IMG/VR virus record: IMGVR_UViG_3300025372_000001
Origin: a virus
Lineage: Duplodnaviria; Caudoviricetes
DNA: 64,000 bases
Strand: one strand, 5' to 3'
Shown here: positions 5,552-40,716 of the stretch, one piece after another
Position numbering within the stretch: position 1 is the first letter of the stretch
Layout: each line of letters starts with the position of its first letter
The notes under the pieces: generated by a model
Database searches by the model: none
What the model saw: only the letters and a program-made list of their open reading frames with translations
What the model was told of the DNA's origin: nothing
Position numbers and translations under genes: made by a program

Positions 5552-5680
5552 ATGAAATTATTCACCATCAAAATTAAGCCACGAAAGAAGCGAGAAAGAT
5601 TTGCTCCTGTTACTAAACAAGAAACGAATCGAAAAGCCTATAATCGAAAACAGAAACATCATAAAAAAGATGAAAGCTAA
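5552..5680 (+). CDS. 42-aa basic protein with an ArfA-like KxYxRKxKH motif (below cutoff)
   Basis: MKLFTIKIKPRKKRERFAPVTKQETNRKAYNRKQKHHKKDES; ATG 5 nt after promoter TTGACA(5518)-17-TATCAT. Confidence 0.5.
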   Translation: MKLFTIKIKPRKKRERFAPVTKQETNRKAYNRKQKHHKKDES

Positions 5681-6104: not shown

Positions 6105-6269
6105 ATGATTCCTCTTCTTTTTGCAATCGAATACAAAGAAGCAGGAGTTTGGACAGAATATCAATATACCGAAAATCTACTTGACGCATGCCATATTGCG
6201 AGTAGATTGACTTGGGAAGTTCGTGAAGAATGGATACGAATCTTAACACCTGATAATAAAATTTTATGA
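6105..6269 (+). CDS. 54-aa hypothetical protein (below cutoff)
   Basis: MIPLLFAIEYKEAGVW...; fills the gap with an ATGA overlap to the next ORF. Confidence 0.5.
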   Translation: MIPLLFAIEYKEAGVWTEYQYTENLLDACHIASRLTWEVREEWIRILTPDNKIL

Positions 6270-10654: not shown

Positions 10655-10730
10655 GTCCCTATAGTGTAACGGATTAGCACCTACGGATTCTACCCGTATA
10701 GAAAAAGTTCAAATCTTTTTAGGGATACCA
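10655..10730 (+). tRNA. tRNA-Arg(UCU)
   Basis: 76-nt cloverleaf: acceptor GTCCCTA/TAGGGAT, anticodon arm TACGG-ATTCTAC-CCGTA, T-loop TTCAAAT, encoded CCA. Confidence 0.92.
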
Positions 10731-17951: not shown

Positions 17952-18004
17952 TTTGACAAACTGATAGTATAAGGTAAAGTAACAATCTCATTAGAAAATA
18001 AACA

Positions 18005-23949: not shown

Positions 23950-23988
23950 TAGTTGACAAAGTAAATTAAATATAGTAAAATGAAAAAT

Positions 23989-24075
23989 GGCGATGTGCTG
24001 AAACTGGTAAACAGGAAAGTTTTAAAAACTTTTGCAAGAAATTGCTTGTCGATTCGATTTCGACCATCGCCACCA
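23989..24075 (+). tRNA. tRNA-Leu(UAA)
   Basis: 87 nt; acceptor GGCGATG/CATCGCC, anticodon arm AAAGT-TTTAAAA-ACTTT, long variable arm, encoded CCA; promoter TTGACA(23953)-17-TAAAAT. Confidence 0.9.
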
Positions 24076-24495: not shown

Positions 24496-24906
24496 ATGGA
24501 AATACCAAGAATACTTTTAGTAGATGATGATTTCAATTCAAAGAATTATGTGGAATCATTAGAAGAACATGGATTTTTTGTTGAACATGCTACAACCCCA
24601 GACATTGCATTGCAGTTGTCGACTAACAATGGGCGATATACATTAGTTATTATGGAATGTATTATGTTGCCAGGGGAAACATTAGCTAACGAATCAGTAG
24701 ATGATGGAATGGAAACGGGTATAGTTTTATTTGATAAAATAAAAGAAATTGCTCCTATGACTCCTTGTTGGTTTTTGACTAATGCACGTTCTGTTGATCT
24801 TATTATGAAAATGGTGGATTTAGTTGGAATAGAAAGAGTTTATCGCAAATATAGTACTCTTCCACGAAGAATCATTCGAGAAATTCAAGAGACTTTTTCC
24901 AGATAA
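24496..24906 (+). CDS. Stand-alone CheY-like receiver domain with the phosphoacceptor Asp replaced by Glu
   Basis: ILLVDDD, LVIME-CIMLP at the usual LD-xMP position, conserved FLT and YRK. Confidence 0.8.
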   Translation: MEIPRILLVDDDFNSKNYVESLEEHGFFVEHATTPDIALQLSTNNGRYTLVIMECIMLPGETLANESVDDGMETGIVLFDKIKEIAPMTPCWFLTNARSVDLIMKMVDLVGIERVYRKYSTLPRRIIREIQETFSR

Positions 24907-25048
24907 CTCTTGACGTAAAAGAGAAAAGATGGTAAAGTCTAATATAGAATTGAACGTAGCCTTCTAATGACAAAATCGATTGTAGTCTAAAAATCTCCTG
25001 ACTAATAGTTAGTTGGTTACTTTCAGTTCTAAACCAAAATAAACAATT

Positions 25049-25267
25049 ATGACAAATATCTATACAGTTCAAACAAGAAGCGAAGAAACTGGATTGAATT
25101 TTTATTCATCTTCAAATCTTGAATCCGCTCTGGTAGAAGCAAAACTTGCAGCCGAAAAAGATTCTTCTATTTGGAAAATTTCTTACATTGATGAAACGGG
25201 TAACAGTGTACGATTGGTGAAGAATGAAGAAAACGAATGGGAAAATCAACCCTTGACTCTTTCGTAA
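25049..25267 (+). CDS. Hypothetical protein
   Basis: Packed ORF. Confidence 0.6.
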   Translation: MTNIYTVQTRSEETGLNFYSSSNLESALVEAKLAAEKDSSIWKISYIDETGNSVRLVKNEENEWENQPLTLS

Positions 25268-25324
25268 AAGATGGTAAAGTAAGGACGTTATAGAGAACTT
25301 GATTCTCAAAATTTATTAATTAAT

Positions 25325-25414
25325 GGTTGGTGGGGGCTGCCCGGCGGTAGCGGCGGACTCATAATCCGTGTTGTGTTTAAACACCTTCAGGATCGACACC
25401 TGCACCAACTACCA
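25325..25414 (+). tRNA. Non-canonical tRNA with CAU anticodon, long variable arm and 8/4 acceptor/T-stem
   Basis: GGTTGGTG/CACCAACT acceptor, GCGGA-CTCATAA-TCCGT anticodon arm, GTGT-TTAA-ACAC V-arm, CAGG-ATCGACA-CCTG T-arm, ACCA end; promoter TTGACT(25253)-16-TAAAGT. Confidence 0.75.
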
Positions 25415-25614
25415 TTTTCACTTCTTGAATAAACCGCTTATACTACTTCACAATGAAAACCGTTAAACAACTTATCGAATGTGGAGATTGGGAAGAATTT
25501 TATCTAACTGATAAAAAAGAAAAATTACCCAAAACACCTGAAAACGAGAAAACCTTTTTAGAATGTAAAGTTAAATGGAGTAGTGTTGCACAAAAAATTG
25601 AGAAATAATCTCTT

Positions 25615-40380: not shown

Positions 40381-40716
40381 AAGTTGAATTGCCAAAGAAT
40401 AGAACTCGATTACGTTGCTGAACTATGAAAACCAAACTTACTCTTGTCAGTGTTGTTGTTAAAGGCAATCCTTGTGCAATCTTTGTTAATGCACCTCAAA
40501 ACGAAAAAGGACAAACAGTGGTTAGCCCTAAAATCTATGATGCTCTCAGTGCCAAAGCAGGTGCTCGCCATGGCGATACTGTCACTATGGGATAAAATAA
40601 AATAAGAAAAAAGAAAATCTTATTTGACAAAGTTTCAGAAGATGGTAAAGTGAACGTGTTGGAGGCAATAACGCCTTTCGACACTTCAAATAAATCCAGT
40701 TAGAACTAAGTACTAT

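What the first reader, a model, noticed from the sequence alone, without database searches (positions are those of the whole stretch)
25325..25414. Allo-tRNA-like gene: CAU anticodon on a long-variable-arm, 8/4 scaffold
Seen: it folds best with an 8-bp acceptor (GGTTGGTG/CACCAACT) and a 4-bp T-stem (CAGG/CCTG), because the 7/5 fold leaves a T-C mismatch. It has no U8, a 3-nt GGG linker, a T-loop ATCGACA (A at 54 and 60), an 18-nt variable region with a hairpin, discriminator A and encoded CCA. Established: Met and Ile2 tRNAs are normally short-arm; long arms mark Ser, Leu, Tyr and Sec tRNAs, and SerRS/LeuRS largely ignore the anticodon; 8/4 allo-tRNAs have been described. Inference: it may be charged with a non-Met amino acid and read AUG or AUA (mistranslation), evade host anticodon nucleases, or act as a decoy.
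Basis: partly seen in the sequence, partly recalled or inferred. Interest (0 to 1): 0.75.

Follow-up and report, generated by a model that had tools for sequence, protein, structure and literature searches.

The report
Phage CAU tRNA on Sec-like scaffold
A freshwater jumbo phage carries a real but oddly built transfer RNA gene: a methionine-type (CAU) anticodon on the long-armed "8/4" body otherwise known from selenocysteine-like tRNAs. It sits where a sister phage keeps an ordinary CAU tRNA, so it is most likely a working adaptor and not a mistranslation device.

Summary
Window 25325-25414 (+) folds with all 27 proposed pairs into an 8-bp acceptor, 4-bp T-stem cloverleaf with a CAU anticodon, an 18-nt variable region, an AUCGACA T-loop and A73-CCA. 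The D-arm can also form 6 bp with a CGGC tetraloop.

- **Detection:** default ARAGORN and the Rfam tRNA model miss it. ARAGORN at a 5% lower threshold draws the same 8/4 fold. Rfam tRNA-Sec is the only tRNA-clan match (34.5 bits, below the cut-off of 47).
- **Setting:** it is the sharpest GC peak of a 34% GC phage window, lies between ORFs, and sits 45 nt behind a recurrent phage promoter.
- **Key evidence:** a syntenic sister phage has, between the same conserved flanks (promoter on the left, ACCATTTTC on the right), a canonical 75-nt tRNA(CAU) plus an HNH endonuclease.
- **Reading:** it fills a conserved tRNA(CAU) slot. CAU plus A73 fit MetRS, or TilS/IleRS for AUA. G73, needed for serine identity, is absent.
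- **Codon context:** the phage's other tRNAs read AGA and UUA, which are enriched in late genes. AUA is mildly enriched, so I favour an AUA-reading Ile2-type role, with elongator Met second.
- **Limits:** I found no sequence homologue, no covariation and no RNA data.

This scan has noted long-armed CAU tRNAs in other phages before.

The parts
25253..25280 (+). Sigma-70-type promoter with an extended -10: TTGACT, a 16-nt spacer ending in TGG, then TAAAGT. It lies 45 nt upstream of the tRNA.
   Evidence: The promoter scan finds it. The motif TTGAC-N17-19-TAAAGT occurs 4 times on the + strand of the window against 0.18 expected, and three copies share AGATGGTAAAGT. The -35 and the GATGGTAA core are conserved in sister phage L145 (alignment A2).
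25281..25324 (+). Predicted 5' leader of about 37-40 nt, AT-rich, to be removed by RNase P.
   Evidence: Inferred from the promoter position. The left flank is homologous to L145 up to window position 25305.
25325..25332 (+). Acceptor stem, 5' strand (8 nt). It pairs with 25403-25410, and the top pair is G1.U.
   Evidence: Sequence, ARAGORN -ps drawing and energy calculation.
25333..25335 (+). GGG linker; no U8.
   Evidence: Sequence.
25336..25351 (+). D-arm: up to 6 bp (GCUGCC/GGUAGC) around a CGGC tetraloop, as in tRNA-Sec and allo-tRNAs. The GG needed for the elbow contact is kept.
   Evidence: Rfam tRNA-Sec alignment. ARAGORN draws only the outer 4 bp.
25353..25369 (+). Anticodon arm: 5 bp (G.U, C-G, G-C, G-C, A-U) with loop CUCAUAA. 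The CAU anticodon is at 25360-25362.
25370..25387 (+). 18-nt variable region: 3 unpaired nt, a 4-bp hairpin GUGU/ACAC with loop UUAA, then 3 unpaired nt.
25388..25402 (+). T-arm: 4 bp (CAGG/CCUG) with loop AUCGACA (A54, U55, C56, A58, A60).
   Evidence: The same T-arm, with one further closing pair, occurs in a bona fide 7/5 phage tRNA-Ser(GCU) at L138:1501-1594.
25403..25414 (+). Acceptor stem 3' strand (8 nt), discriminator A and the encoded CCA.
   Evidence: CCA is also encoded in this phage's tRNA-Leu and tRNA-Arg.
25411..25420 (+). Conserved right junction of the slot (ACCATTTTCA).
   Evidence: The same string follows the canonical tRNA(CAU) of L145. It recurs after the HNH gene inserted there (alignment A3).
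25417..25444 (+). Promoter-like site for the next gene (ATG at 25453). This marks the end of the tRNA unit.
   Evidence: It is homologous to L145 6255-6417.

Best explanation
This is a genuine phage tRNA gene used in translation. It is transcribed from its own conserved early-type promoter, trimmed by RNase P at G1, and folds into a 12-bp (8+4) acceptor/T helix. It has a tRNA-Sec-like D-arm and an extra variable hairpin.

It does the job of the ordinary tRNA(CAU) that a sister phage keeps in the same genomic slot. Its amino acid is set by the anticodon and A73, not by the class II body. Two routes fit:
- **Preferred (about 45%):** the host enzyme TilS converts C34 to lysidine, and IleRS then charges the tRNA, so it reads AUA. 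It would then complete a T4-like trio of readers of A-ending codons, alongside Arg-UCU and Leu-UAA.
- **Second (about 25-30%):** MetRS charges it directly, and it reads AUG as an elongator.

The unusual body is tolerated, and may be selected because it differs from host tRNAs that nucleases target.

Shown here: the fold, the setting, the promoter and the slot equivalence. Inferred: transcription, processing, charging and decoding.
For: 1. All 27 pairs of the 8/4 cloverleaf form, against at most 21 in 20,000 shuffles. The fold lies within 0.9 kcal/mol of the MFE.
2. ARAGORN -ps independently draws the 8/4 fold at 25325-25414.
3. Rfam tRNA-Sec scores 34.5 bits, E 8.6e-6 in a 116-nt search. It is the only tRNA-clan match and aligns the D-, anticodon, V- and T-arms.
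4. The element is the top GC island of an AT-rich window, is intergenic, and has no overlapping ORF.
5. A member of a 4-copy promoter family (expected 0.18) lies 45 nt upstream.
6. Synteny with L145-L148: window 24944-25305 matches L145 4888-5263 at 79% DNA identity, and window 25428-25593 matches L145 6255-6417 at 76.5%.
7. Between those flanks the window has only this element. L145 has a canonical 75-nt tRNA(CAU) (Rfam tRNA 53.3 bits) plus an HNH endonuclease gene.
8. The promoter on the left and the ACCATTTTC string on the right are conserved in both phages.
9. Identity rules: CAU is sufficient for E. coli MetRS, and lysidine switches a CAU tRNA to Ile (PMC9976931).
10. Every tRNA-bearing T4-like genome in PMC1524935 had a CAU tRNA with IleRS signatures.
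11. The window's other tRNAs are Arg-UCU and Leu-UAA.
12. In the structural-gene module against the rest of the window, AGA/Arg is 0.59 against 0.21, UUA/Leu is 0.47 against 0.19, and AUA is 12.0 against 8.4 per 1000 codons. AUG is flat.
13. The D-loop GG and T-loop U55/C56 needed for the tRNA elbow are present.
14. 8/4 tRNAs are processed, charged and used by E. coli ribosomes (PMC5389517).
Against: - I found no sequence homologue anywhere, so no covariation supports the fold. Searches: viral contigs patterns, metagenome contigs, cultured phages, and model R1 on relatives.
- The three DNA runs that hold the phage show no variants.
- The tRNA-Sec score is below Rfam's gathering cut-off, and default tRNA finders miss the element.
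- A54/A60, the G1.U top pair, the missing U8 and the 3-nt linker could impair folding, EF-Tu binding or enzyme recognition.
- The E. coli TilS/IleRS acceptor and stem determinants (C4-G69, C5-G68, C29-G41) are absent. Only U12-A23 is present, so Ile identity rests on context alone.
- The AUA enrichment in late genes is modest (1.4-fold).
- The host is unknown.
Confidence: 0.62

Rival explanations
1. It is a missense (mistranslating) tRNA. The class II body lets SerRS, or less likely LeuRS, charge it, so Ser or Leu is inserted at AUG or AUA.
For: - It has a long variable arm, G2:C71 and C11:G24.
- SerRS ignores the anticodon and accepts 8/4 and 9/3 bodies, and allo-tRNAs with Leu anticodons insert Ser in E. 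coli (PMC5389517).
- A73 is the main LeuRS determinant (PMC9976931).
- An earlier scan note (e1-5320483, not checked here) reports a stripped seryl-tRNA-synthetase core gene elsewhere in this phage.
Against: - A73 replaces the G73/U73 that goes with serine identity. In PMC5389517 only the G73 allo-tRNA variant inserted Ser.
- G1.U replaces the conserved G1-C72.
- The variable stem is short (4 bp) with 3 unpaired nt on each side.
- The LeuRS elements are absent: A15-U48, a normal D-loop with G18G19/A20a, and U54:A58 (PMC9976931).
- MetRS would compete strongly through CAU.
- The sister phage has a canonical class I tRNA(CAU) in the same slot.
Confidence: 0.08
2. Its main role is not decoding. 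It would act as a tRNA-like decoy or sponge, or as a nuclease-resistant stand-in aimed at host tRNA-cleaving defences (VapC-like or anticodon nucleases), or as a ligand for a phage protein.
For: - The body differs from every host-type CAU tRNA, while the anticodon loop CUCAUAA is kept.
- Related phages carry several reshaped tRNAs: Lys-UUU with a long arm, a CAU tRNA with a 7-bp D-stem, and Leu-UAA without the arm.
- Earlier scan notes, not checked here, report a second long-armed CAU tRNA and a Ro60/Y-RNA array in this genome.
Against: - It has a complete acceptor end with A73-CCA, an intact elbow and a 12-bp acceptor branch. These are the features needed for charging and for EF-Tu, and a decoy needs none of them.
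- The slot holds a normal tRNA in the sister phage.
- No nuclease or defence gene was identified beside it.
Confidence: 0.12
3. It is a decaying or non-functional tRNA gene: a leftover cassette in a recombination hot spot that is still tRNA-shaped but no longer used.
For: - It is a singleton with no homologues.
- It scores below threshold with standard tools.
- It has non-standard T-loop and linker features.
- The region is mosaic, and tRNA cassettes move between slots.
- Allo-tRNA pseudogenes are known (PMC5389517).
Against: - None of the 27 pairs is broken, and the only wobbles are G.U.
- The anticodon loop, the elbow nucleotides and the CCA are perfect.
- A promoter lies just upstream.
- The GC island is kept in a 34% GC genome. 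Decay in an AT-rich phage would erode it quickly.
Confidence: 0.13
4. It is a second initiator-type tRNA.
For: - The 1:72 pair is weak (G.U).
- Two of the three G-C pairs closing the anticodon stem are present.
- The A54/A60 T-loop recalls eukaryotic initiators (own knowledge).
Against: - The 1:72 position is paired, and the third G-C pair is A-U.
- The slot orthologue in L145 has an all-A/U anticodon stem and a G1-C72 pair, which makes it an elongator type.
Confidence: 0.04

Closest known systems
(8/4) allo-tRNAs and phage (8/4) tRNA-Ser/tRNA-His (Mukai et al. 2017, PMC5389517)
   Same: - A 12-bp acceptor branch split 8/4.
- A long variable arm.
- A tRNA-Sec-like D-arm with a long stem and a tetraloop.
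- It surfaces as a sub-threshold tRNA-Sec covariance-model match and is missed by ordinary tRNA finders.
- An anticodon that does not fit a class II body.
- Occurrence in phages.
   Different: - The discriminator is A73, not G73/U73, so no serine identity is expected.
- The anticodon stem is 5 bp, not lengthened.
- The anticodon is CAU, which is not mentioned in the paper's text (its Figure 2 could not be read here).
- The T-loop has A54/A60.
- There is a 3-nt G linker.
- It replaces a canonical tRNA(CAU) in a conserved phage slot and is not linked to toxin-antitoxin loci.
Bacterial tRNA-Sec (Rfam RF01852)
   Same: It is the best-matching Rfam family (34.5 bits). It shares the 8-bp acceptor, the 6-bp/4-nt D-arm, the long variable arm and a similar T-arm.
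   Different: - The acceptor branch is 12 bp, not 13 bp.
- The anticodon is CAU, not UCA.
- The discriminator is A73, not G73.
- The score is below the gathering cut-off of 47.
Phage tRNA-Ile2 (CAU, lysidine-modified), as in T4-like phages (PMC1524935) and E. coli ileX
   Same: - CAU anticodon with A37, A38 and A73.
- U12-A23.
- It is encoded together with Arg-UCU and Leu-UAA in an AT-rich T4-like genome.
- AUA is used at about 1% of codons.
   Different: - The body is class II and 8/4.
- It lacks the E. coli-type determinants C4-G69, C5-G68 and C29-G41.
- Lysidine formation is untested.
Canonical tRNA(CAU) of the sister phage (L145:5590-5664)
   Same: - The same genomic slot, with the same promoter on the left and the same ACCATTTTC junction on the right.
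- The same anticodon loop CUCAUAA.
- A73-CCA.
   Different: It is 75 nt, 7/5, class I, with a normal D-loop and a UUUGAGU T-loop. It has no detectable sequence similarity to the element beyond generic tRNA features, and an HNH endonuclease gene lies next to it.

Membership tests
allo-tRNA (8/4 type, Mukai et al. 2017) | 12-bp acceptor branch made of an 8-bp acceptor stem and a 4-bp T-stem | tested here: met
   All 12 pairs form. ARAGORN -ps draws 8/4. The 8/4 fold scores -31.1 kcal/mol, against -27.9 without the G8-C79 pair.
allo-tRNA (8/4 type, Mukai et al. 2017) | Long variable arm | tested here: met
   An 18-nt variable region with a 4-bp hairpin.
allo-tRNA (8/4 type, Mukai et al. 2017) | tRNA-Sec-like D-arm (long stem, tetraloop) | tested here: met
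   A 6-bp stem with a CGGC loop is possible, and the Rfam tRNA-Sec alignment uses it. There is no covariation to confirm it.
allo-tRNA (8/4 type, Mukai et al. 2017) | Lengthened anticodon stem | tested here: not met
   Only 5 bp form. The sixth position is G x G, flagged as a non-pair.
allo-tRNA (8/4 type, Mukai et al. 2017) | G73 or U73 discriminator giving serine identity (true of most members) | tested here: not met
   The discriminator is A.
allo-tRNA (8/4 type, Mukai et al. 2017) | [quoted passage not shown] | tested here: inconclusive
   RF01852 scores 34.5 bits against a gathering score of 47. It is still the best and only tRNA-clan hit, and is seen only when a short stretch is searched.
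allo-tRNA (8/4 type, Mukai et al. 2017) | Processed, charged and used on ribosomes | not testable with these tools
   No RNA run holds the phage.
tRNA-Sec | UCA anticodon, 13-bp acceptor branch (8/5 in bacteria) and G73 | tested here: not met
   The element has CAU, 8/4 (12 bp) and A73.
Elongator tRNA-Met | CAU anticodon plus A73 (MetRS determinants) | tested here: met
   Identity rules are from PMC9976931.
Elongator tRNA-Met | Class I body (4-5 nt variable loop, 7/5, U8) | tested here: not met
   An 18-nt variable region, 8/4 and no U8.
tRNA-Ile2 (lysidine type) | CAU with A37/A38 and A73, plus the TilS/IleRS stem determinants known from E. coli (C4-G69, C5-G68, U12-A23, C29-G41) | tested here: inconclusive
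   The loop, A73 and U12-A23 are present. 4:69 is U-A, 5:68 is G-C and 29:41 is G-C. The host's rules are unknown. The context (Arg-UCU and Leu-UAA partners, AUA usage) is favourable.
Bacterial initiator tRNA-fMet | Unpaired 1:72 and three G-C pairs closing the anticodon stem | tested here: not met
   G1.U is a wobble pair, and only two of the three G-C pairs are present.

The most novel reading that the evidence does not exclude
The phage deliberately puts the CAU anticodon on a Ser/Sec-type body so that the tRNA is serylated. The charging enzyme would be the host SerRS, or the stripped SerRS-like core that an earlier scan note reports elsewhere in this genome. Ser would then be inserted at AUG or AUA codons during infection. 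This would be natural, phage-driven sense-codon reassignment or programmed mistranslation.
Probability: 0.07. Interest if true: 0.9.

Novelty: new variant of a known kind. Interest (0 to 1): 0.55.

Why it matters
8/4 tRNAs are known for Ser, His and Cys, and as serine-charged allo-tRNAs. If this one works with Met or Ile, then MetRS or TilS/IleRS, RNase P and EF-Tu would accept a Sec-like class II body. The shape of a tRNA and its amino-acid identity would then be more separable than textbooks state.

The comparison with the sister phage gives a natural swap experiment. Two unrelated scaffolds carry the same anticodon in the same slot behind the same promoter, next to a homing endonuclease. 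This suggests how phage tRNA cassettes are exchanged. It also offers a way to test whether reshaped bodies protect phage tRNAs from host nucleases.

There is a practical point too. Default tRNA finders miss this gene, so phage tRNA sets are under-counted.

Tried and rejected
**Homologue searches that found nothing useful**
- The exact anticodon-arm 18-mer in IMG/VR hit only ordinary tRNA-Met/fMet genes.
- The T-arm 15-mer hit mostly by chance. The two real hits were a giant-virus initiator-like tRNA and the L028/L138 tRNA-Ser.
- The combined anticodon plus T-loop pattern gave 0 hits in IMG/VR. In metagenome contigs it gave 6 chance hits inside coding DNA.
- blastn against cultured phages gave only 24-nt chance matches.
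- A 22-mer from the upstream ORF fetched two unrelated contigs.
- The covariance model R1 was built from the single sequence. It found only class II tRNAs at 15-30 bits in relatives and in the window, and no paralogue or orthologue.

**Searches through neighbouring genes**
- The downstream 51-aa ORF has no relatives.
- The contig carrying P0003 ends just after the ORF.
- The relatives found through the 184-aa ORF (L124-L126) share only that gene.

**Expression and population data**
- No RNA holder is listed for this DNA.
- The DNA contigs of three freshwater runs are identical over the element, so there is no population variation to exploit.

**Access and annotation**
- The whole phage contig (262 kb, ENA) could not be reached through the genome search or the fetch from genomes. 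I therefore did not read the second long-armed CAU tRNA or the SerRS-like core reported by earlier notes.
- Neighbouring ORFs have no informative Pfam or PHROG family.

**Folds and identities considered and rejected**
- The 7/5 fold needs a U x C mismatch.
- A 9/3 fold fails because G9 cannot pair.
- AlaRS identity is excluded (no G3:U70).
- TyrRS identity is excluded (A35, not U35).

Full report
**What is there**

Window 25325-25414 (+) is a 90-nt, 58% GC stretch in a 34% GC genome. It is the highest GC peak of the whole 64-kb window (0.60 over 75 nt). It lies in the 185-nt gap between ORFs 25049-25267 and 25453-25608, and no ORF of 40 aa or more overlaps it on either strand.

Read directly, it gives:
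- an 8-bp acceptor stem (top pair G1.U, then seven Watson-Crick pairs);
- a GGG linker, with no U8;
- a D-arm that can form 6 bp around a CGGC tetraloop;
- one G, then a 5-bp anticodon stem with loop CUCAUAA;
- an 18-nt variable region with a 4-bp hairpin;
- a 4-bp T-stem with loop AUCGACA;
- discriminator A and an encoded CCA.

All 27 pairs form. Dinucleotide shuffles placed on the same structure give a mean of 10.8 pairs and a maximum of 21 in 20,000 trials. The cloverleaf scores -31.1 kcal/mol, within 0.9 of the unconstrained minimum. Dropping the eighth acceptor pair costs 3.2 kcal/mol. The 8/4 register is the best one, because 7/5 needs a U x C mismatch.

**Detection by tools**

- Default ARAGORN finds only tRNA-Arg(UCU) at 10655-10730 and tRNA-Leu(UAA) at 23989-24075.
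- Rfam at gathering threshold, and at E<=10 on 2.5 kb, reports nothing at the element.
- When only 116 nt are searched, so the filters are lax, the tRNA-Sec model RF01852 matches 25326-25409 at 34.5 bits, E 8.6e-6 (gathering score 47). It is the only tRNA-clan hit, and it aligns the 6-bp D-stem with tetraloop, the anticodon arm, the variable hairpin and the 4-bp T-stem. By my scaling, that is still about E 5e-3 for the whole window.
- ARAGORN with thresholds lowered by 5% calls tRNA-Met(cat), 90 nt, at exactly 25325-25414, and draws an 8-bp acceptor and a 4-bp T-stem.

Allo-tRNAs were discovered the same way, as tRNA-Sec-model near-misses (PMC5389517).

**Genome context**

The window is part of a 262-kb contig from a freshwater metagenome. 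It is a jumbo phage with T4-like clamp loader, baseplate wedge and portal proteins. The DNA occurs in several freshwater runs, is identical over the element, and no RNA run is listed.

A sigma-70-type promoter with an extended -10 (TTGACT, 16 nt, TAAAGT) ends 45 nt upstream of G1. The motif TTGAC-N17-19-TAAAGT occurs four times on the + strand against 0.18 expected. Three copies share AGATGGTAAAGT, so this is a real promoter class of the phage.

**The decisive comparison**

The 72-aa upstream ORF has one good relative, P0002 at 77% identity. It is carried on contigs L145-L148, which are syntenic with window 15.5-25.6 kb.
- DNA homology runs up to window 25305 (L145 5263, 79% identity).
- It resumes at window 25428 (L145 6255, 76.5% identity).
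- Between these flanks the window has 122 nt, which is essentially just the element.
- L145 has 991 nt there: 326 nt of non-coding DNA, a canonical 75-nt tRNA(CAU) at 5590-5664, and a reverse-strand 194-aa HNH endonuclease gene.

The L145 tRNA is found by default ARAGORN and scores 53.3 bits on the Rfam tRNA model. The endonuclease matches phrog_2255 at E 5.7e-23.

The promoter's -35 and its GATGGTAA core are conserved on the left (alignment A2). The string ACCATTTTC follows the tRNA in both phages. In L145 it is repeated on the far side of the HNH gene (alignment A3), which looks like a target duplication from insertion of the endonuclease.

The two tRNAs share the loop CUCAUAA, A73 and CCA, but no other sequence similarity. 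Model R1 scores the L145 tRNA at only 10.6 bits.

I conclude that this is a conserved tRNA(CAU) slot whose occupant was exchanged. The 8/4 element is the functional counterpart of an ordinary CAU tRNA.

**Which amino acid**

- **SerRS:** bacterial SerRS relies on the variable arm plus G73 and G1-C72/G2-C71 (PMC9976931). In the allo-tRNA work only the G73 variant inserted Ser (PMC5389517). The element has A73 and G1.U.
- **LeuRS:** it needs A73 plus the A15-U48, G18G19/A20a and U54:A58 core. The tetraloop D-arm and A54 remove most of this.
- **AlaRS and TyrRS:** there is no G3:U70 for AlaRS and no U35 for TyrRS.
- **MetRS and IleRS:** a CAU anticodon alone makes tRNA-Val a full MetRS substrate. 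Lysidine at C34 switches a CAU tRNA to Ile and AUA.

So charging should follow the anticodon. The choice between Met and Ile2 cannot be settled from sequence. The element has U12-A23 but not the E. coli C4-G69, C5-G68 or C29-G41 determinants.

Context favours Ile2:
- Every tRNA-bearing T4-like genome examined in PMC1524935 had a CAU tRNA with IleRS signatures.
- The window's other tRNAs read AGA and UUA.
- AGA/Arg is 0.59 in the structural module (42-64 kb) against 0.21 elsewhere. UUA/Leu is 0.47 against 0.19. AUA is 12.0 against 8.4 per 1000 codons. AUG is flat.

My split is Ile2/AUA about 45% and elongator Met about 25-30%.

An initiator role is unlikely. The 1:72 position is paired, only two of the three G-C pairs are present, and the slot orthologue in L145 has an all-A/U anticodon stem.

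**Why the odd body**

This is unknown. Reshaped tRNAs are frequent in this phage group:
- L145 has a 76-nt tRNA-Leu(UAA) without the long arm, behind the same promoter type.
- L125 has an 85-nt tRNA-Lys(UUU) with a variable hairpin.
- L124 and L125 each carry three tandem CAU tRNAs. One has a 7-bp D-stem and is missed by default ARAGORN. Another is 82 nt long.

The A54/A60 T-arm of the element recurs, with one more closing pair, in a bona fide 7/5 tRNA-Ser(GCU) of an unrelated 114-kb phage. That T-loop is therefore compatible with function, and the body may descend from a class II phage tRNA.

Escape from tRNA-targeting nucleases is a reasonable selective reason, but nothing here tests it.

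**Weaknesses**

The element is a singleton. Pattern scans of IMG/VR and JGI metagenomes, blastn against cultured phages, and covariance searches of all relatives found no homologue. So there is no covariation evidence and no expression evidence. A recently acquired, poorly working or decaying gene cannot be excluded, although 27 intact pairs and a maintained GC island argue against decay.

**Comparison with known families and novelty**

The element works like, and largely looks like, an (8/4) allo-tRNA. It fails two features that define most members: the G73/U73 serine identity and the lengthened anticodon stem. It also scores below the tRNA-Sec gathering threshold. I therefore file it as a new variant, an 8/4 Sec-like scaffold with Met/Ile-type identity in a jumbo phage, and not as a plain member.

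Earlier notes of this scan describe long-armed CAU tRNAs in other phages, and a second one in this genome. I did not verify those.

Noticed in passing
L145:4807-4882 (promoter at L145:4760-4788): The sister phage has a 76-nt tRNA(UAA) with G37 and A73 but only a 5-nt variable loop, so it is a Leu-type tRNA without the class II arm. It sits behind the same TTGACA-17-TAAAGT promoter type. The window's own tRNA-Leu(UAA) at 23989-24075 is a normal 87-nt class II tRNA in a different slot.
   Followed up: partly
L145:5652-6236 (-), with repeats at L145:5657-5667 and 6231-6241: An HNH homing endonuclease gene (phrog_2255, E 5.7e-23) overlaps the 3' end of the canonical tRNA(CAU) on the opposite strand. 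It is flanked by an 11-nt direct repeat, CACCATTTTC(+1). This suggests endonuclease-driven turnover of the tRNA cassette.
   Followed up: partly
L124:3700-3959 and L125:3720-3976: Related freshwater phage contigs carry three tandem CAU tRNAs. One is 82 nt with a variable region of about 14 nt. Another has a 7-bp D-stem with a triloop and a G1.U72 pair, and only relaxed ARAGORN finds it. The L124 and L125 copies differ by compensatory changes.
   Followed up: partly
L125:8765-8849: An 85-nt tRNA-Lys(UUU) with a 4-bp variable-arm hairpin on an otherwise 7/5 body. It was the best non-self hit of model R1 among the related contigs (29.2 bits).
   Followed up: partly
window 17953-17980, 24910-24938, 25253-25280 and 40624-40651 (+): A four-copy promoter family, TTGAC-N-(AGATGG)TAAAGT, against 0.18 copies expected by chance. 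It is probably a temporal class of phage promoters.
   Followed up: partly
window 23953-23989: The tRNA-Leu(UAA) gene has a TTGACA-17-TAAAAT promoter whose -10 ends 7 nt before G1. The transcript would therefore start at or next to the mature 5' end, with almost no leader for RNase P to remove.
   Followed up: no
window 42000-64000 compared with 1-42000: Codon bias differs strongly between modules. AGA is 59% of Arg and UUA 47% of Leu in the structural genes, against 21% and 19% elsewhere. This matches the phage's tRNA-Arg(UCU) and tRNA-Leu(UAA).
   Followed up: partly
L138:1501-1594 (IMG/VR 3300045988_157039, a 114-kb phage with terminal repeats): A bona fide 7/5 tRNA-Ser(GCU) with G73 has the T-arm GCAGG-AUCGACA-CCUGC. 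This is the same A54/A60 T-loop and stem as the element.
   Followed up: partly
window 23989-24075: The whole-window Rfam gathering search missed this tRNA-Leu, although it scores 54.9 bits when 2.5 kb are searched. This is a filter artefact to keep in mind for AT-rich phage tRNAs.
   Followed up: yes
window 24496-24906 (+): A 136-aa ORF with a weak, sub-threshold match to the response-regulator receiver domain (PF00072, 24.4 bits). The ORF of similar size at the same position in L145 is not homologous.
   Followed up: no
L009 (IMG/VR GVMAG-S-1035124-57), minus strand near 2108-2122: A giant-virus contig carries an initiator-like tRNA(CAU) with the same CAGG-AUCGACA-CCUG T-arm, the eukaryotic-initiator type of T-loop.
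   Followed up: no
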